Shown: positions 652-17,990, numbered from the stretch's first letter. The stretch: 20,000 nt of DNA from an uncultured virus (IMG/VR IMGVR_UViG_2690316191_000004) (IMGVR_UViG_2690316191_000004:50105-70104), one strand, 5' to 3'. Notes: generated from the letters alone by a model not told the origin. Made by a program: numbers and translations.

Positions 652-1227
652 CTAATGTTTTTTTATCTTAGGATATTTCTTTTCATAAGCTTTGACCTTC
701 TCCTCCATCGTAGGAATTGTCCATTCGCATAAATCACCATCTGGGAATTTGTTTTGCTTTCTTACATCTTCTGCGATTTGCGCGGCCTTAAGGCCAAGAA
801 GTGAATATTGATATTGACGCGTTTCAAAATAATCCTTGTAGTCAGGAGGGGACGCTTCAAACTCCCAAGATGAGGAAACTATTCTTTTTGCTTCTTTCTG
901 TTCTACCGGTAAACTGCATACCCGATACATAATATCGGAGCTAAGTGACCGCCAATTCCCCTTAATTGATGAGTAGTCAAGCAGTTTTGGAGGGGAGATG
1001 GCTGACTGAGCTTCCCCTTGTTCACCAGTGTATTCACCATAGTCAGTAGCTACTTCTGCGCACTTTTTCGCATAATCTTCTAGGAGGAATATAAGCTCAG
1101 CGCAAATAAATTTCCTTTCAGGTGAAAACTGCTTGTTCTCTTTATACCAACCGATATAGTGATTTGTAATATGGCCTATAACAGCACCAACTGCACCACC
1201 TATCATTGAGCCAACCCATGCATCCAT
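652..1227 (-). CDS. Hypothetical protein with N-terminal Gly-rich hydrophobic (membrane-anchor) helix; cargo gene
   Basis: 191-aa AT-rich ORF with AGGAG RBS 5 nt before ATG; N-terminus WVGSMIGGAVGAVIGHIT followed by charged residues. Confidence 0.8.
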   Translation of the reverse strand: MDAWVGSMIGGAVGAVIGHITNHYIGWYKENKQFSPERKFICAELIFLLEDYAKKCAEVATDYGEYTGEQGEAQSAISPPKLLDYSSIKGNWRSLSSDIMYRVCSLPVEQKEAKRIVSSSWEFEASPPDYKDYFETRQYQYSLLGLKAAQIAEDVRKQNKFPDGDLCEWTIPTMEEKVKAYEKKYPKIKKH

Positions 1228-1324: not shown

Positions 1325-1704
1325 GCGAGACTAGCATAACCTTAACGCGCTCTTCCAGCTTTTGGCTGTAATGTTTCACGGCCCTTTGTTATGGTCTAAA
1401 CCCAAGTAAGGATTTTTCTAGTCCCCCTTGGTCGCCAGCTGTTCAATACAAAATAGCATGGCGATATTTATTTCGTTGGTCTCTTATATATACAGCCATG
1501 AACGTCGCCAGTCTCCTGCGCGGAAGGAGAACAGTATTCCTTAAGATTGTTTTATCAGGTGTAATTACTGCATCATAGTTTCTGTACTTGGCGCATCAGA
1601 TATTAGGTTTTTCAGGAATAAGAGTAGAATATGATAGATAAATTCAAAAAATGTAATGACGAAGCCAAAATTAACTTCGCCACAGTATCCCTAAATGAGA
1701 TTTA

Positions 1705-3156
1705 TTATTTTTTAGAGGGGGCTAAGCCACCCTTTTTCAACATTAATGCTGCAACACGGAATAAGTCTGGAATATCTATACGACCATCGTGCCTGTATTC
1801 AATAAGCCCAATTTTTGCCATGGCCTCAAGCAATGCTGTATTTTTATCTAATTTGGTTGTAGGTGGGAACGGAGGAAGAAAACCAGTTTCTTCATCTTTA
1901 GATGCATTGAGGATTACCCGTACAGTGTTCGTGTCCTGCCAGCGTGTTATCAATTCGGAAATATCGCAAGGAACACGAAGCCCAGCTAAAGGTGCCAAAG
2001 CACGTCTAACCCAAACATACTCAACACCTAATTGGTCAACCCTGACTTTCGATGCCTCACGAAGCCCATGTCTAATACCTTCAGCGGTTACGACTTGCGT
2101 CTGGTTTACATGAACAAATTTTGCAGCTTCAACAAAAAGCTTGATGAAACTTCTAGGCGTCACATTCCCATAAGCATCAGAAAGATGTCTATATGGCCAA
2201 TCGTAAGTTTTACCTTTTTTGGGGTTTGACCCCATATAAGGACCTGCGATTACTGACATTACATTTTGTTGCAATCCTGAATCAAATAATAGCATCCATG
2301 ATCTTTTCGCTTTAGTGGAATTTGAGTTTGGTCTTCCAATCCCCAATTGATTACAAAGGGATAAGAAGTCTGGCGATTGAGATTCATAAGCTAATCGTGA
2401 AAATAATAAACCATATAGTTCTTCTTGAGTCCATTCGAGTTCAACTCTAGCACTTTTGAGCTTAGGCAATTCTACAAAACGTAGTGAATCATCATTTAAT
2501 TGTTCTGGTCTTATAAAAACTTTTGCTTTGATATTCTTGTAAGCACGAAGAGACCAAATTGCCTCAAAAAGTGCATCTAGTAAAAGCCCTGAACGTCCCC
2601 ATTGTTTTGAAATTGTATCAAGAGCATCAAAAGTCACAAGAATGGTTTTATTTAGACCTTTAAGAGTTTTTTCTAAATCCGAAAAGTAGATATCAACATC
2701 TTCAGGATCATTAAAATTCTGCATGATATCTGATAGCTTTTTTGAAGGCGCTGTAGGGTTAAGTTTTTTATGTACAGATTGAATAATTAATGATTGCCAA
2801 AAAGTATACCCGAGTTCATTTTCACGACCGGCAGGAACTAACGCATCGATAAATTTTTTCTGATTCAGTGATGTGTACCCTGGCGTTACAATCAGGCTAT
2901 CTAATCCAAGATTAGGATAAAATTCGCCCGCAACTATACGCGTGTGGTCATGATTTAAAACACCAGCCCAAAAGCTTTTACCTGTACCACGAGCCCCTAC
3001 TACGATAGTTGAGTAGGGATCGAGAGCATTTGCATGTTGCTCCGGAGCAAAGATCTCTTGAGGTGAGGGAGCATGATCTCCATCAGCGTCGTGGTCAGAT
3101 GGCAAATCACGCAAGGCTCCCCTTAACCTTGAAAAATCAATATTAACTATCTTCAT
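1705..3156 (-). CDS. P-loop NTPase, STAND-like (Sll1717-type) with probable C-terminal winged helix
   Basis: 483 aa. Walker A GARGTGKS, Walker B ILVTFDALD, VFIRPE strand, VTPRSFI helical-domain motif, C-terminal AKIGLIEYRHDGRIDIPDLFR. Start overlaps the upstream gene by 14 bp. Confidence 0.85.
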   Translation of the reverse strand: MKIVNIDFSRLRGALRDLPSDHDADGDHAPSPQEIFAPEQHANALDPYSTIVVGARGTGKSFWAGVLNHDHTRIVAGEFYPNLGLDSLIVTPGYTSLNQKKFIDALVPAGRENELGYTFWQSLIIQSVHKKLNPTAPSKKLSDIMQNFNDPEDVDIYFSDLEKTLKGLNKTILVTFDALDTISKQWGRSGLLLDALFEAIWSLRAYKNIKAKVFIRPEQLNDDSLRFVELPKLKSARVELEWTQEELYGLLFSRLAYESQSPDFLSLCNQLGIGRPNSNSTKAKRSWMLLFDSGLQQNVMSVIAGPYMGSNPKKGKTYDWPYRHLSDAYGNVTPRSFIKLFVEAAKFVHVNQTQVVTAEGIRHGLREASKVRVDQLGVEYVWVRRALAPLAGLRVPCDISELITRWQDTNTVRVILNASKDEETGFLPPFPPTTKLDKNTALLEAMAKIGLIEYRHDGRIDIPDLFRVAALMLKKGGLAPSKK

Positions 3157-4549
3157 AAACCTTGACCTGAGATTGTTCTACTAATAAGTTAGCTTTAGTA
3201 ACTAGCGACCCAAACGTAGCATTATATACCTTGTCGGAAAGAGTGTCTCTATCTTTGAGTGGGTCAAATTCACGATATGAAGAGTCATCAAGTACAACTA
3301 AAACCTCATTGAAATCAAATCCGAGCTTCAGTACCTTCTCCGTTTGTTCTTCGACGTCATCACTGTCAGACCATATAACCTCAAAAGAATCACGCAACTC
3401 TAAAATTTCTTTATCCAAGCTTGCCTCTTCCAATTTGTTGGAGAAATATTTTTGAGCGAGGTTTTCTACATTTAAACTAAATTGTTCTCGTTTTTCTTGA
3501 GATAAAGAAGCCTTAGCATGAACAAAATGAAGATTTTGCAACCAACTATCTTTAACGTTATTTTCAGATTTATTAGAAGCAATTGCGGAAAATAGCAACT
3601 CATATCCTTGCAAGGTTTGAGGCTGATCAACACCAAAGCAAAAAACATCCGCGCCTAAACCGACCAACGCTGCGGCTGTGGTTTCATGCAGGCCAGATCT
3701 TGCATCAACTAAAACAACGTCATATCGATTACGGTCAAACGAATCTAATAATCTCCTCAAGCTATCCATGAATGTTGCCACCTGATTTTGGGAATCAACA
3801 TTTGTTAAGTAAGCTCTAGATATCTTACCTATGACATCAATCGGATTCTTAAGACTTGCTCTACCTAATGCTGGAATTACATCTATTCTTCCTCTACCTT
3901 CTGATAACCAAGAAGGACCTATTAACTCTTGTAATTCAGAAAAATCGAAATTATTAAGGTTTGTCTCAACAAAATAATCCAAGAGCCCGAGTTCTGGCAA
4001 CGTATCCGGAGTTAATAGCATATTCCCTAATCCAGGTGCTTCTAAGTCTAAATCTATTGCTAATACTCTTTTACCTGCTTTTGAAAGAGATGCTGCGACA
4101 ACGCACAATGCTGTTGTTCTGCCAACCCCACCTTTAATACTTGAAAAAACGATTCTCGCAGGACCAGTGTAACTTGAAAAATATCTTTGCCAATCCGCAC
4201 CAGTCACTCTGCGTTCAAAATAAAAAACATCCAACGCTGTGTCGTCAGATATATTCACTTGCCTCAGATAATTCTCAGTTAATTGCAGGTTTTTTAGCTC
4301 ATCGTCAAATAAGTCATCTACACTACAGACAGCGAAATCTGGGTCAACATAAGATCCCATTTTAACTTTGGCAATATCATTTGCTTTTTCAATTTTACTA
4401 AGCCCAATATCATCCCTAACAACAAAGGTTAATTTCCCCTGTGCATCACGCAGAAAAATATTGTTTTTAAAAGCCTCACGACCTAAAACATCAATAATCA
4501 AAGATACAAATATACTTAATGAAGAATCATAGGATATTTTATTTTTCAT
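3143..4549 (-). CDS. ParA/MinD-superfamily ATPase with variant KGGVGRTT Walker A and an extra ~130-aa N-terminal domain
   Basis: 468 aa. FSSIKGGVGRTT, A' motif VLAIDLDLEAPGL, Walker B YDVVLVDARSGL. ATGA overlap with the upstream gene. Confidence 0.9.
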   Translation of the reverse strand: MKNKISYDSSLSIFVSLIIDVLGREAFKNNIFLRDAQGKLTFVVRDDIGLSKIEKANDIAKVKMGSYVDPDFAVCSVDDLFDDELKNLQLTENYLRQVNISDDTALDVFYFERRVTGADWQRYFSSYTGPARIVFSSIKGGVGRTTALCVVAASLSKAGKRVLAIDLDLEAPGLGNMLLTPDTLPELGLLDYFVETNLNNFDFSELQELIGPSWLSEGRGRIDVIPALGRASLKNPIDVIGKISRAYLTNVDSQNQVATFMDSLRRLLDSFDRNRYDVVLVDARSGLHETTAAALVGLGADVFCFGVDQPQTLQGYELLFSAIASNKSENNVKDSWLQNLHFVHAKASLSQEKREQFSLNVENLAQKYFSNKLEEASLDKEILELRDSFEVIWSDSDDVEEQTEKVLKLGFDFNEVLVVLDDSSYREFDPLKDRDTLSDKVYNATFGSLVTKANLLVEQSQVKVYEDS

Positions 4550-4932
4550 TTTTTCTTAATCCCTGTATGTCTAAAAATTTGCTTGGTTTCAGCAAACCAA
4601 TTATTCAGCATCTCTTGTGTGACTTTACCATCTGAAGAATAGCGATCATTAATGCTCCAGTTTGCAAAGAAATTCTTTTTTAGTAAAGTATGCAAAGCTC
4701 TATCATGATGCATGTCAACTTTACGAAGAGCTATTCTAAAAAGATCAGGCAAATGCCCATTAACACCGGTTAGATCAGCACGAGTGATTTTACATTTATC
4801 TTTTATTGCGCACTCAGCCGCCAATCCTAACAAATGAGCTGAAGTATCGTACTTCTGTTGGTTATGTAGTATCTCGGCACTTTCAAAATGCCTTATCGCT
4901 GATTGTTTGTAATCATCCATTTCAATTGCCAA
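4546..4932 (-). CDS. HEPN-domain-like protein (start TTG 4932 or ATG 4920)
   Basis: About 125 aa, helical-looking. Pattern A..L...KYD.SA.LLGLAAECAIK ... GHLPDL ... W....RY matches the PF05168-type HEPN signature (E..LK, H.L, RY). Confidence 0.7.
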   Translation of the reverse strand: MAIEMDDYKQSAIRHFESAEILHNQQKYDTSAHLLGLAAECAIKDKCKITRADLTGVNGHLPDLFRIALRKVDMHHDRALHTLLKKNFFANWSINDRYSSDGKVTQEMLNNWFAETKQIFRHTGIKKK

Positions 4933-4953
4933 TTGATCGATAATTAAAAAATA

Positions 4954-4982
4954 ATTTTATAATACATCCCATTGTTCTACAA
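4954..4982 (-). promoter_or_regulatory. Putative sigma70 promoter of the three-gene cargo operon
   Basis: Minus strand TTGTAG(4982-4977)-17 bp-TAAAAT(4959-4954). The AT-rich context makes chance matches possible. Confidence 0.5.
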
Positions 4983-5037: not shown

Positions 5038-5277
5038 TTATCTTTGCAAACCAAAGGTATGTTTATTCTTCCAGTATTCGTAGCATTGAGGTCGCCAATC
5101 AACGTAAACTGCCTGTATCGGCATTTCCATGCAATGAGTTGGAGTACCTACCCTGTCATCATCCTGCAAAGGCAGGGAAGAAACGATATCGCCTTGTTTG
5201 TACATCAGCGCACGGCCACTTTCAGGAAACGAGTGTCGTTGCACGACAATAACTCCGTCATGCCATCTGATGACCAC
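5038..5277 (-). pseudogene. Probable decayed small prophage gene (nin-like region hypothetical)
   Basis: VIRWHDGVIV..HSFPE..RALMY..GD.VS.LPLQ.D..VGTP resembles a small enterobacterial prophage protein from memory. Upstream frame has stops and the C-terminus diverges. Confidence 0.35.
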
Positions 5278-5496
5278 GTAAAGGTTCCTCTTTTTACCTC
5301 ACCAATTCCCCCTCTACTTGGAAAGTTTTGCATGTTGTTTCAGCTCTTCCAGGTATCATGAAAATTTAGCCCTGTTCGCTTTTACCACCAATCACGGTTA
5401 GCCTATCAGAGCCGGTCCGACGAACCACCGGACTGCAGTTATTAAAGTTTTGATCCAATCTCCGCAGTAACTGCTTCTCCAGAACAGGAATAGCAC

Positions 5497-5700
5497 CTGA
5501 TCGCGGAACAATCCCAGACGACCATGCCGGACAACCTCGCCAGTCGCTTCTGCTTCGGAAAATTACCGCTGGCCAGTAGCGCGGCTCAGCCCCAGTTTTT
5601 TCATTGCCTCGGCGGTCGTGAGTCGCCCCTGATGTCTGGTGATCCGAATCACTGCGCGGACGTACTCTCTGCGCTCAACTGCTGACAATGCTCTTGCCAT
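5497..5700 (-). pseudogene. DUF977-family HTH protein with premature stop and altered 3' end
   Basis: ATG 5700 with GAGGT RBS. MARALSAVERREYVRAVIRITRHQGRLTT...LGLSRATGQR*, TAA at 5563-5565, then the frame continues FSEAEATGEVVRHGRLGLFRDQ. Typical position after dnaC. Confidence 0.7.
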
Positions 5701-7376: not shown

Positions 7377-8171
7377 TTAAACTGGTGTGTTTTCATCACC
7401 AAGCACCCACAGCAAAGCCGCTGCGTATTCGCCGCTGGCGGTTTGAAGTTGCAGGGTGATTTCCTTACGGGATTTAAGACGCGGCTTTGTGTCACCGAGA
7501 ACAGCGCGCTGGCGGCGAGCTTTCTCGTGGCCAGTTACACCCTCTGCCGCTGCCTCTAACTGTTTGACCGTTTCCCGTTGCTTTTCCGGTGGCATATCGA
7601 CCAGCTGACGAGCTTGAGTGACAGTGACTTTTCCAGCCTCAACCGCCGCCTGGACGGCCTGCGTAGCATCCAGTAGAGCCACGGTTGCCTGGACCGTTTT
7701 TACGCTGCAGCCAAAAAGCAGGGCAATGTCATTTTCGTCATGACCGTATTCCATCTGCTGAACCATTTTTTTTGCCCGGCCCAGTGGGGTATCTGGTTGC
7801 GTGATCTCGTTTTCGCTGACCATGTATTTGGCCATTTGAATTGCCGAGCCGCGCTTAGCTATACCGGGTACCGGCCAGGGTTCCAGCCCCGCCCGCTTTC
7901 TCCTGACGTTTGCTTCCATAGCGTTCTTTACGCGCTGCCGACCTGCAACCACGCAGGTTTTCCCTGTCTCTGGGTCCTTCCACACGATAATCGGTTCGAG
8001 TACCCCAAGCTCCATGATGTTGAGGATCACAGCTTCATTAAGCGGTAGGTGTACTCGTTCGTCGTAAAGCGGGTGTGTTGTATCGGTCACCAGATGCAGG
8101 TTTTCAGGTTCGAAAAACAGGACGTTGCTTTTACCGCTGGCGCCGTACGCGTCGATCGAGTTTTTAGCCAT
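7377..8171 (-). CDS. ParB/Spo0J-family protein (ParB N-terminal domain plus HTH)
   Basis: 264 aa. GVLEPIIV...VVAGRQRVK, SEN motif, HTH DIALLFGCSVKTV. Confidence 0.85.
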   Translation of the reverse strand: MAKNSIDAYGASGKSNVLFFEPENLHLVTDTTHPLYDERVHLPLNEAVILNIMELGVLEPIIVWKDPETGKTCVVAGRQRVKNAMEANVRRKRAGLEPWPVPGIAKRGSAIQMAKYMVSENEITQPDTPLGRAKKMVQQMEYGHDENDIALLFGCSVKTVQATVALLDATQAVQAAVEAGKVTVTQARQLVDMPPEKQRETVKQLEAAAEGVTGHEKARRQRAVLGDTKPRLKSRKEITLQLQTASGEYAAALLWVLGDENTPV

Positions 8172-8838: not shown

Positions 8839-9069
8839 TTATACCCTCTGCTCCTGCGGCAAACCGTCGGTAGGGTTCGGGTATAAATCGGGGCGCAATT
8901 CGTGTGGCGTAACTCCGGTTGCTTTGAAGATAGTGAGAACGCGGCTTTGCGGTACCACGCCGTAATTTCTATTTTTCCAGTGACTAACCGTCATAGCTGA
9001 AACATCTAAACTTTCAGCTAGCTTGCTGGCATTCCCTGCAATGTTTATGGCTTTGTCGAGAGCTTTCAT
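8839..9069 (-). CDS. Cro/YdaS-like HTH regulator
   Basis: ATG 9069 with AGGAG RBS; 76 aa; HTH SKLAESLDVSAMTVSHW and the YdaS-type tail TGVTPHELRPDLY. Confidence 0.92.
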   Translation of the reverse strand: MKALDKAINIAGNASKLAESLDVSAMTVSHWKNRNYGVVPQSRVLTIFKATGVTPHELRPDLYPNPTDGLPQEQRV

Positions 9070-14876: not shown

Positions 14877-15230
14877 ATGAGCAAATCACTTAACCCACGA
14901 TGCATACGCCGCTGGAAAGTTGAATTCAAAGGGCGCTGCGATTCGAAATATAGCCCCTACTGGCACAAGCGCGATCTCCGCGGTTACATCCGTGAGGCGG
15001 CACTGACTACGGCGTATTGCATGGTTGAAAACTTGGCCTACAACAACGCAATGCACGATTTTTTCGCTGATGTGGGTGACAGGAATGGCTGGTCGCCAGA
15101 GTTCTCAGCATGGTACGACTGGCGTCGAGAGCATTATCTCAAAGAAGCTCGCGACTACCTGAATGAAGAAGCCACCAACGACGAAATAGACGACGAAATA
15201 GAGAACGAGCTGGAGGCCTGGAATGACTGA
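14877..15230 (+). CDS. Hypothetical phage protein with acidic C-terminus
   Basis: 117-aa ORF fitting the operon; overlaps the next start. Confidence 0.75.
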   Translation: MSKSLNPRCIRRWKVEFKGRCDSKYSPYWHKRDLRGYIREAALTTAYCMVENLAYNNAMHDFFADVGDRNGWSPEFSAWYDWRREHYLKEARDYLNEEATNDEIDDEIENELEAWND

Positions 15231-15834
15231 TATCGCCACCTTCACTAATGAGCAATTAATCGCCGTGTGCCGTGCTGACGTGGCGGAAATGTCGAAGTTT
15301 TTAAAAGAGGGTGAATTCAGCAATCCGTCCCGCGCAGCCATGTATTTGCGTATTACTGAAATCGCATTGGCAGCGCTGATGGGGGAGTTCTCATTTGCTC
15401 GCAATCAGGTTCGCCGAGAACACGCTGAATGGTCACATGCCACCTTCGGCAATGTTGGTCCGGCTGGCCCACTGAAACACCTCAGCATAGAAGCGCTTGA
15501 AGCTGCCGCGGAACCTAACGACCACAGCGAATGGGCTGATATGCAGTTCCTGATGTGGGATGCCCAGCGCAGAGCGGGAATCACTGACGAGCAGATTACC
15601 CAGGCGATGATCGATAAGCTCGCGGTAAATAAGGCGCGCCATTGGCCCGAGCCAAAGGACGGGGAACCTCGGATGCATTTACGAAGCGAAGACGAATCAC
15701 TCAACGCCAGGCGCCGCCGTAATCGTGAATCAAATGCGCGCGCTCGCGAACGTGAAACGCCCGCACAACGCAAAGCCAGACTGGAGAAAAACAGATTGAG
15801 AATGGCTCTTCGTCGTAAGGGAGGTGCCAAATGA
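15223..15834 (+). CDS. DUF550/MazG-like (dATP/dGTP pyrophosphohydrolase-type) protein with Arg-rich tail
   Basis: EHAEWS..TFG.VGP.GPLKHL..EALEA...P.D.SEWAD.QFL.WDA.RRAG...K..VNK.R.WP motif; GGAGG RBS. Confidence 0.8.
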   Translation: MTDIATFTNEQLIAVCRADVAEMSKFLKEGEFSNPSRAAMYLRITEIALAALMGEFSFARNQVRREHAEWSHATFGNVGPAGPLKHLSIEALEAAAEPNDHSEWADMQFLMWDAQRRAGITDEQITQAMIDKLAVNKARHWPEPKDGEPRMHLRSEDESLNARRRRNRESNARARERETPAQRKARLEKNRLRMALRRKGGAK

Positions 15835-17913: not shown

Positions 17914-17990
17914 TGCCCCCAAGACTAAAAACATGATTAAATTTTCAAATAATATCAACAAGTTAAATAAAACCAGTAAAGTTAATACCG
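17902..17990. promoter_or_regulatory. Prophage attachment-site arm (arm-type repeats plus IHF site); core not determinable
   Basis: ATGYCCC direct repeat at 17902-17908 and 17913-17919; TATCAA-CAAG-TTA 17953-17965 matches the IHF consensus WATCAANNNNTTR; AT-rich tract before GC-rich host DNA. Confidence 0.6.

What the first reader, a model, noticed from the sequence alone, without database searches (positions are those of the whole stretch)
1705..4982. Candidate prophage-borne defence/conflict operon: HEPN-like + KGGVGR ParA-type ATPase + STAND-like NTPase
Seen: three intact, visibly AT-rich, co-oriented genes joined by an ATGA overlap (4546-4549) and a 14-bp overlap (3143-3156), preceded by a putative promoter and surrounded by broken phage genes. 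Established: HEPN domains are often RNase toxins in toxin-antitoxin and abortive-infection systems, STAND NTPases act as infection switches, and the region downstream of lambdoid replication genes carries accessory cargo. Inference: a two-ATPase switch gates the HEPN effector and protects the lysogen from other phages. I cannot match it to a named defence system, but novelty is unverified.
Basis: partly seen in the sequence, partly recalled or inferred. Interest (0 to 1): 0.87.

Follow-up and report, generated by a model that had tools for sequence, protein, structure and literature searches.

The report
Prophage copy of HINPO defence candidate
This dormant Klebsiella-type virus carries a three-gene module, a probable RNA-cutting toxin plus two ATP-driven switch proteins, that has already been predicted twice by computer to be a bacterial anti-virus system and that I found no laboratory test for.

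Summary
The three genes are real, intact, AT-rich and overlap as described; the HEPN gene more likely starts at ATG 4920 (124 aa). The trio is already named. All three proteins hit PADLOC candidate PDC-M28A/B/C. [quoted passage not shown] HEPN and ParA folds were confirmed on predicted models. The third protein is a Sll1717/ORC-CDC6-like NTPase. The inactive-NTase domain test was inconclusive. The unit is tightly conserved: 91 of 99 loci carry A-B-C in order. It is GC-poorer than its flanks in 51 of 54 loci and recurs in prophage cargo slots. It is not clustered with other defence systems: 8 of 273 neighbouring ORFs hit PADLOC, mostly generic domains. Here it sits among gene remnants in a 70-kb lambdoid prophage, next to a second candidate, PDC-S67. 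Most likely an abortive-infection module whose HEPN RNase is gated by the two NTPases; every mechanistic step is inferred. Verdict: new member of a known, computationally predicted kind; useful as a testable enterobacterial copy.

The parts
4546..4920 (-). Gene A: HEPN-T type (AF0298/TM0613-like) HEPN protein, 124 aa from ATG 4920 (128 aa from TTG 4932); PDC-M28A; HINPO PA-HEPN1 position; predicted RNase effector
3143..4549 (-). Gene B: 468-aa protein, N-terminal alpha/beta domain plus ParA/MinD-type ATPase with KGGVGR Walker A; PDC-M28B
4208..4549 (-). N-terminal domain of gene B (about residues 1-114); the predicted inactive Pol-beta nucleotidyltransferase (iNTase) of HINPO
   Evidence: Helix-strand-strand-helix-strand-helix order in the model; invariant D8 R34 G38; hhalign to MNT profile only 2.5% probability: inconclusive; identity taken from the preprint
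4115..4135 (-). Deviant Walker A of gene B, K139-G-G-V-G-R144-T145 (R in place of K, a ConB2 mark)
   Evidence: K139-R144 invariant in 56 sequences; ConB2 definition
1705..3156 (-). Gene C: 483-aa Sll1717-family, ORC/CDC6-STAND-like NTPase; PDC-M28C; predicted sensor
   Evidence: NF047389 89 bits, cut-off 75; PDC-M28C E 4.3e-113; Atlas neighbours ORC-CDC6-like, nSTAND1, Sll1717 and ParA-fused forms; Walker A G54-S61 and D177/D180 conserved
1656..1683 (-). Terminator-like hairpin with T-run, 22 nt after the stop of gene C
   Evidence: 6 such sites found, 3.5 +/- 2.1 in shuffles; consensus match only
4954..4982 (-). Weak promoter candidate TTGTAG-N17-TAAAAT
   Evidence: read by eye; below the threshold of the scan; unproven
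5038..5277 (-). 79-aa small phage ORF (phrog_1813/phrog_340-like)
5384..5497 (-). dinI fragment (residues 16-53, 55% identical to the phage's own DinI)
5497..5700 (-). Truncated DUF977 gene (68 of 111 codons), junction at 5497
1505..1594 (-). Degenerate 5' remnant of a DUF1367 gene (78% nt to the phage's own copy)
652..1227 (-). Separate single-gene defence candidate PDC-S67 (191 aa) in the same cargo region
   Evidence: PADLOC E 3.5e-43; 80% identical homologue in Klebsiella phage Kp4864-1
5708..6457 (-). DnaC-like helicase loader; last core replication gene before the cargo slot (context)
   Evidence: 96% identical to Klebsiella phage ST13-OXA48phi12.4

Best explanation
A prophage-borne member of the HINPO / PDC-M28 family, most likely an abortive-infection defence of the lysogen. 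Shown: family membership, the folds of A and B, conserved NTPase motifs in B and C, co-inheritance and the cargo position. Inferred: (1) the operon is expressed in the lysogen; (2) HEPN (A) dimerises into a metal-independent RNase with the alternative HEPN-T site E40/K44, H60, R97, cutting tRNA or mRNA; (3) at rest A is held inactive by B, plausibly through B's dead nucleotidyltransferase domain, the relic of the MNT antitoxin that normally partners HEPN-T toxins; (4) C, which has no repeat sensor domain, recognises invader DNA or an invader replication protein and changes nucleotide state; (5) C flips the ATP state of B, which frees A; translation stops and the incoming phage is aborted.
For: All three genes hit PDC-M28A/B/C, a family defined because a copy lay embedded in a BREX, DISARM or type I RM system. 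Order and domains match HINPO. The HEPN-T fold comes with an invariant Ex3K, an alternative H and R, the pattern that PMC3710099 proposes as an alternative RNase site. HEPN-T is the nucleotidyltransferase-associated class, in which the MNT is the proposed antitoxin. 91 of 99 loci carry A-B-C in order; 73 of 78 uncut loci keep all three intact; genes overlap or abut; B-C fusions exist. The cassette is GC-poorer than its flanks in 51 of 54 loci and patchy: 0 of 400 other genomes of the order of G001, none in 5,426 E. coli genomes by blastn. It recurs in prophage accessory slots. RNA-seq contigs of 4 runs of one study cover the cassette (presence only). A tested prophage HEPN-ATPase trio, RemAIN, is a precedent.
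Against: No experiment on this family was found in 10 literature searches. The canonical Rx4-6H RNase motif is absent and PMC3710099 notes that such HEPN domains may act non-catalytically. Homologues are not in defence islands: 8 of 273 neighbouring ORFs in 31 loci hit PADLOC, and only one (L017, FRG/PDC-S15) looks defence-specific. In MNT-HEPN pairs the antitoxin gene nearly always comes first; here HEPN is first. The iNTase fold was not shown here. The preprint makes ParA polymers the primary effector and HEPN a backup. C has Ala, not Glu, after the Walker B Asp, so its hydrolysis is uncertain.
Confidence: 0.5

Rival explanations
1. HINPO model of the preprint: C binds invader DNA and nucleates ParA (B) multimers that physically block the invader; the iNTase senses nucleotides; HEPN is only a backup suicide effector.
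For: Proposed in 10.64898/2026.10.19.760177. B and C are fused in 4 of 19 viral loci by profile and in Atlas clusters, which points to a B-C core. A is broken in 4 of 78 loci, C in 2.
Against: A is kept intact with invariant residues in most loci, and the three B-fusion loci inspected still have a HEPN-like ORF upstream, which fits an essential effector. The A/C asymmetry is small and the sample was selected on B.
Confidence: 0.2
2. A selfish addiction (toxin-antitoxin-like) islet that persists by post-segregational killing and stabilises whatever carries it; phage defence is incidental or absent.
For: Homologues mostly sit alone between housekeeping genes with low GC. 3 of 71 loci are hugged by 139-290 bp direct repeats against 1 of 62 control pairs (48 bp), as in 'insertion with long target duplication' of RM systems. 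HEPN-T ancestry is toxin-antitoxin.
Against: Two conserved NTPases are more than addiction needs. Many true defence systems are solo, and PDCs as a class have low island association. RM systems, which move this way, also defend.
Confidence: 0.15
3. A prophage-competition or anti-plasmid device: it is triggered by induction or replication of co-resident prophages or plasmids (RemAIN-like) more than by virulent phages.
For: RemAIN (ParA ATPase, immunity protein, HEPN anticodon nuclease) in Gifsy-1 mediates prophage competition. The cassette occurs in lambdoid and P2-like prophages and B homologues lie on 12 plasmid records. ORC/CDC6-like proteins bind replication origins.
Against: Most homologues found are chromosomal and away from prophage genes. 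RemAIN belongs to the other ParA branch (ConB1) and has no STAND NTPase.
Confidence: 0.1
4. A non-conflict role (partition, stress or positioning module with a non-catalytic RNA-binding HEPN).
For: ParA/MinD/FleN fold; housekeeping neighbours; no Rx4-6H motif.
Against: Patchy, low-GC, horizontally moving cassette with no constant neighbour; no ParB partner in the unit.
Confidence: 0.05

Closest known systems
HINPO system (Li, Burroughs, Aravind; bioRxiv 10.64898/2026.10.19.760177; sections 10, 12, 14, 22 and passages read, figures and supplements not seen)
   Same: Gene order HEPN, N-terminal domain-ParA, ORC-CDC6/STAND; R for K in Walker A and a PG motif after the DxD sensor; occasional ParA-STAND fusion.
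   Different: The paper reports enrichment in multicellular bacteria and does not mention prophage carriage in the HINPO section; this copy is in an enterobacterial lambdoid prophage. Function is predicted only. Sequence-level identity with the paper's members could not be checked (supplements closed).
PADLOC candidate PDC-M28 (A/B/C) (Payne et al., bioRxiv 10.1101/2024.01.29.577857; passages read)
   Same: All three proteins hit the A, B and C models over nearly full length, adjacent and in order.
   Different: Nothing found. PDCs are described as 145 untested candidates. This copy is not embedded in another defence system.
RemAIN of Salmonella prophage Gifsy-1 (seen through passages of PMC13043305 and the HINPO preprint; the primary paper was not read)
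   Same: Prophage-borne three-gene unit with a ParA-type ATPase and a HEPN nuclease; experimentally anti-phage.
   Different: ConB1 ParA plus HeH-domain partner, no STAND NTPase, no iNTase; this HEPN is of HEPN-T type.
MNT-HEPN toxin-antitoxin pairs, HEPN-T class (PMC3710099; passages and section 14 read)
   Same: HEPN-T fold with Ex3K, alternative His and a C-terminal Arg-Tyr; neighbour predicted to carry a Pol-beta fold.
   Different: The nucleotidyltransferase is predicted dead and fused to a ParA ATPase; HEPN gene comes first; extra STAND-like NTPase.
Avs / bacterial NLR-like STAND systems (recalled, not read here)
   Same: STAND-clade NTPase coupled to a toxic effector.
   Different: C has no fused effector and no C-terminal repeat sensor (no Pfam hit); the effector is separate and a ParA lies between.

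Membership tests
HINPO | Upstream gene encodes a HEPN domain | tested here: met
HINPO | Middle gene is a ParA-clade NTPase of branch ConB2 (Walker A R for K; PG after sensor DxD) | tested here: met
HINPO | ParA fused to an N-terminal catalytically inactive Pol-beta nucleotidyltransferase | tested here: inconclusive
   An N-terminal domain of about 114 aa is present with a compatible element order and no GS..DxD motif. hhalign against 27 MNT sequences: probability 2.5%, score 16.6, above 18 controls (max 14.3), with Q37/K39 on the DxD; 1.5% with a deeper alignment. The domain was not folded and searched alone.
HINPO | Downstream gene encodes an ORC-CDC6/STAND AAA+ NTPase | tested here: met
   NF047389 Sll1717 above cut-off; Atlas structure neighbours TM 0.85 with an ORC-CDC6-like cluster (13% of members carry PF24389) and 0.70 with nSTAND1 (19%). 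No solved-structure match by sequence profile.
HINPO | Conserved order A-B-C, sometimes B fused to C | tested here: met
   91 of 99 loci in order; fusions L095, L096, L097, L099
PADLOC PDC-M28 | Adjacent hits to models A, B and C | tested here: met
   E 3e-21, 1.2e-82, 4.3e-113 over 3-127/138, 3-434/438, 5-479/480. PADLOC's own rule file was not run.
Anti-phage defence system (function) | Reduces phage propagation | not testable with these tools
   Needs plaque assays
Anti-phage defence system (function) | Enrichment next to other defence systems | tested here: not met
   8 of 273 ORFs in 31 loci hit PADLOC at E<=1e-15, mostly UvrD, topoisomerase, kinase or ABC domains; 92 ORFs of 11 further loci were not scanned; no background rate was computed. 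Not a required feature.
Canonical HEPN RNase | Rx4-6H motif | tested here: not met
   R97-Y98 invariant, no conserved His 4-6 residues later; invariant H60 upstream instead: the AF0298-like HEPN-T variant
RemAIN / ParA-HeH subtype 4 | Small HeH-domain partner gene; ConB1 ParA | tested here: not met
   The third gene is a 483-aa P-loop NTPase; Walker A is of ConB2 type

The most novel reading that the evidence does not exclude
HINPO is an MNT-HEPN toxin-antitoxin pair rebuilt into a two-NTPase relay: the dead nucleotidyltransferase domain is a protein cage for a non-canonical HEPN-T RNase (not a nucleotide sensor, as published), ParA's ATP cycle opens the cage, and an ORC/CDC6-like ATPase that reads foreign replication origins trips it. 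The 3.3-kb unit also spreads as a lone islet without a recombinase of its own, sometimes with 140-290 bp target duplications, and is repeatedly captured by temperate phages.
Probability: 0.3. Interest if true: 0.62.

Novelty: new member of a known kind. Interest (0 to 1): 0.3.

Why it matters
The architecture is in print as a prediction (HINPO, PDC-M28), so the find itself is not a discovery. Its value is practical. It is a compact, intact, enterobacterial copy of a family for which my 10 searches found no experiment, and the family is rare in this order (0 of 400 other genomes). It can go straight into laboratory E. coli to ask whether HEPN-T proteins without Rx4-6H are RNases, whether a SIMIBI ATPase gates a toxin, and what an ORC/CDC6-like sensor detects. 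Two points add to the sections of the preprint that I read: repeated prophage carriage, and lone low-GC insertion with occasional long flanking repeats.

Tried and rejected
Single-sequence locus scans found nothing; the alignment scans worked. No DNA match in E. coli genomes and no protein match for C in GenBank phages. Sequence profiles of A and C found no solved structure at E<0.01. Whole-protein fold searches of B tested only residues 127-463, so no nucleotidyltransferase hit there means nothing. The Atlas gave no usable hit for B 1-115. The profile search with that domain returned 309 representatives; 50 of the 51 listed proteins of 400 aa or more carry the ParA Walker A, with no link to active MNTs. 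No complex was modelled, so A-B and B-C binding are open. In one search, RNA contigs were sparse or absent over the replication, recE/recT and integrase genes, and two contigs end at 4926. I do not use either point: the runs were picked with the cassette, come from one study, carry a variant prophage, and contigs show neither ends nor levels. Promoter consensus not above chance. TTG start at 4932 rejected in favour of ATG 4920. A defence-island signal was looked for and not found. No earlier scan findings. Literature: 'PDC-M28' 0 papers; 'KGGVGR' nothing relevant; 'HINPO' only the preprint; searches showed no test of this trio in their listings; the DefensePredictor preprint main text has no ParA/MinD mention. 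Subscription papers and preprint supplements were not searchable, so a test may exist unseen. The MAE_18760 HEPN plus ParA/Soj dyad of PMC3710099 was considered and rejected as the family: it has Rx4-6H and the ATPase gene first.

Full report
Observation. A second assembly, L104, 98.2% identical over 17.4 kb, has the same proteins at 99-100%. The HEPN gene most likely starts at ATG 4920: the 124-aa form is on 15 contigs of the protein collection and the 128-aa form is absent. The promoter is not above chance (10 sites found, 11.4 expected, none upstream on the coding strand); a terminator-like hairpin follows gene C at 1683-1656.

Setting. The window is the right end of a 70-kb record whose ORFs follow a lambdoid layout: tail, head, lysis, late control, cargo, replication, immunity, recE/recT and integrase, then a host gene. 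The window part was named by Pfam and PHROGs; the left part was read from the ORF list by eye. The replication genes are 95.6% identical to Klebsiella phage ST13-OXA48phi12.4. In four related Klebsiella prophages the stretch between dnaC/DUF977 and dinI/DUF1367 holds different small genes and no such cassette. Here DUF977 is cut at 5497 and joined to a foreign dinI fragment, and the cassette is followed by a decayed DUF1367 start. The simplest reading (inference) is that the block was captured from the dinI-DUF1367 slot of another prophage. A second candidate, PDC-S67, lies at 652-1227.

Co-occurrence. An alignment of B fetched the best 80 of 442 confirmed genome loci and all 19 viral loci. 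91 of these 99 have A-B-C in order, one of them (L041) with A and B fused by a deletion; 3 are cut by contig ends; 5 are long B fusions without a profile hit for A. The three fusion loci inspected still have an upstream ORF with the E-C..K, H, W..RY pattern. After dropping 3 duplicates and 13 cut loci, 73 of 78 keep all three genes intact. The sample is selected on B and on similarity to this copy. In Raoultella terrigena the three homologues have consecutive accessions.

Mobility and context. The cassette is GC-poorer than its flanks in 51 of 54 loci, median difference -0.084 (two duplicates included). It was found in none of 400 other genomes of the order of G001 and in no E. coli genome by blastn. 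In 12 viral loci (82 of 103 ORFs scanned) it lies beside P2-type packaging genes (L082, L088), integrases (L081, L083, L085), a repressor (L094), or between O/P replication genes and NinB/Q (L091), the same slot as here but inverted and about 24-33% identical, which suggests an independent capture. Against expectation it is not in defence islands: 8 of 273 ORFs in 31 of 42 selected loci hit PADLOC. Pfam on 109 near ORFs shows mostly metabolic and housekeeping genes, with mobility genes at L030, L042 and L063, and reveals most of the PADLOC hits as UvrD, topoisomerase or ABC proteins. 3 of 71 loci have 139-290 bp direct repeats within 600 bp of both ends, against 1 of 62 control pairs; L067 has a 205-bp repeat at 96% in the 1-kb run. 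[quoted passage not shown]

Expression. Four RNA-seq runs of one study hold 79-94% of the cassette's words, and their contigs cover it. This shows presence in RNA libraries only.

What is known. PADLOC models PDC-M28A/B/C cover all three proteins; PDCs are untested candidates found embedded in BREX, DISARM or type I RM systems. The preprint 10.64898/2026.10.19.760177 defines HINPO as HEPN, iNTase-ParA, ORC-CDC6/STAND with occasional fusion of the last two, and proposes DNA sensing by the ORC-CDC6 protein, ParA multimers as primary effector and HEPN as backup. Four of five defining features were met here and one was inconclusive. I saw neither figures nor supplements, so identity rests on architecture and motifs. 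The nearest tested system is RemAIN of Gifsy-1, from the other ParA branch. Ten searches found no experiment on this trio; subscription journals are largely outside the library.

Mechanism. About 0.8 in total for some anti-invader role, shared among three models. I favour (0.5) abortive infection with HEPN as the effector. The reasons are that A keeps an invariant candidate active site in nearly every locus and that HEPN-T is the class that pairs with nucleotidyltransferase antitoxins. That pairing suggests B's dead NTase domain cages A and that the ATP cycles of C and B release it. None of the binding or triggering steps was shown. Rivals: ParA-polymer effector (0.2), addiction islet (0.15), prophage or plasmid competition (0.1), non-conflict role (0.05).

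Verdict. A real, well-conserved operon; a new member of a family already predicted twice. Interest 0.3: low for surprise, moderate for testability.

Noticed in passing
window 652-1227 (-): Second PADLOC candidate, PDC-S67 (E 3.5e-43), 191 aa with an N-terminal glycine-zipper-like hydrophobic segment (weak); 80% identical homologue in Klebsiella phage Kp4864-1.
   Followed up: partly
L023 5246-5522/8864-9161; L039 5303-5497/8857-9051; L056 5258-5396/8990-9128; L067 about 2957-3161/7183-7387: Long direct repeats (139-290 bp, 79-96% identical) hug the cassette; in L039 the repeat is the 3' end of an alpha-2-macroglobulin gene. Possible insertion with long target duplication.
   Followed up: partly
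L032 8811-11396, L034 2773-5430, L047 2856-5360: Three alphaproteobacterial loci have a UvrD/PcrA-type helicase gene directly beside the cassette; possibly a favoured insertion site.
   Followed up: no
L095-L099: Divergent viral versions with B fused into 774-945 aa proteins (4 of 5 hit the C profile) and longer upstream HEPN-like ORFs.
   Followed up: partly
L080 flanks (about 4650-4719 and 8933-9002): 70-bp inverted repeat at 93% on either side of the cassette; MITE- or transposon-like ends.
   Followed up: no
window 15223-15834 (+): dATP/dGTP pyrophosphohydrolase (PF04447, E 4.7e-39) in the early region; recalled as a family linked to modified-base synthesis or counter-defence.
   Followed up: no
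window 7377-8171 (-): ParB-like gene between the CII/YdaT-like gene and the replication initiator. It is also in phage ST13-OXA48phi12.4, which lacks the cassette, so it is not the partner of gene B.
   Followed up: partly
window 17984: RNA contigs of three runs leave the window at 17984 and run on in other sequence: a candidate prophage right end or a different insertion site in that strain. No att repeat over 13 bp was found within the record.
   Followed up: partly
G000 C1 10666-18153: Two tail-fibre-like genes with the same N-terminus face each other beside an invertase-like ORF (read by eye), suggesting an invertible host-range cassette.
   Followed up: no
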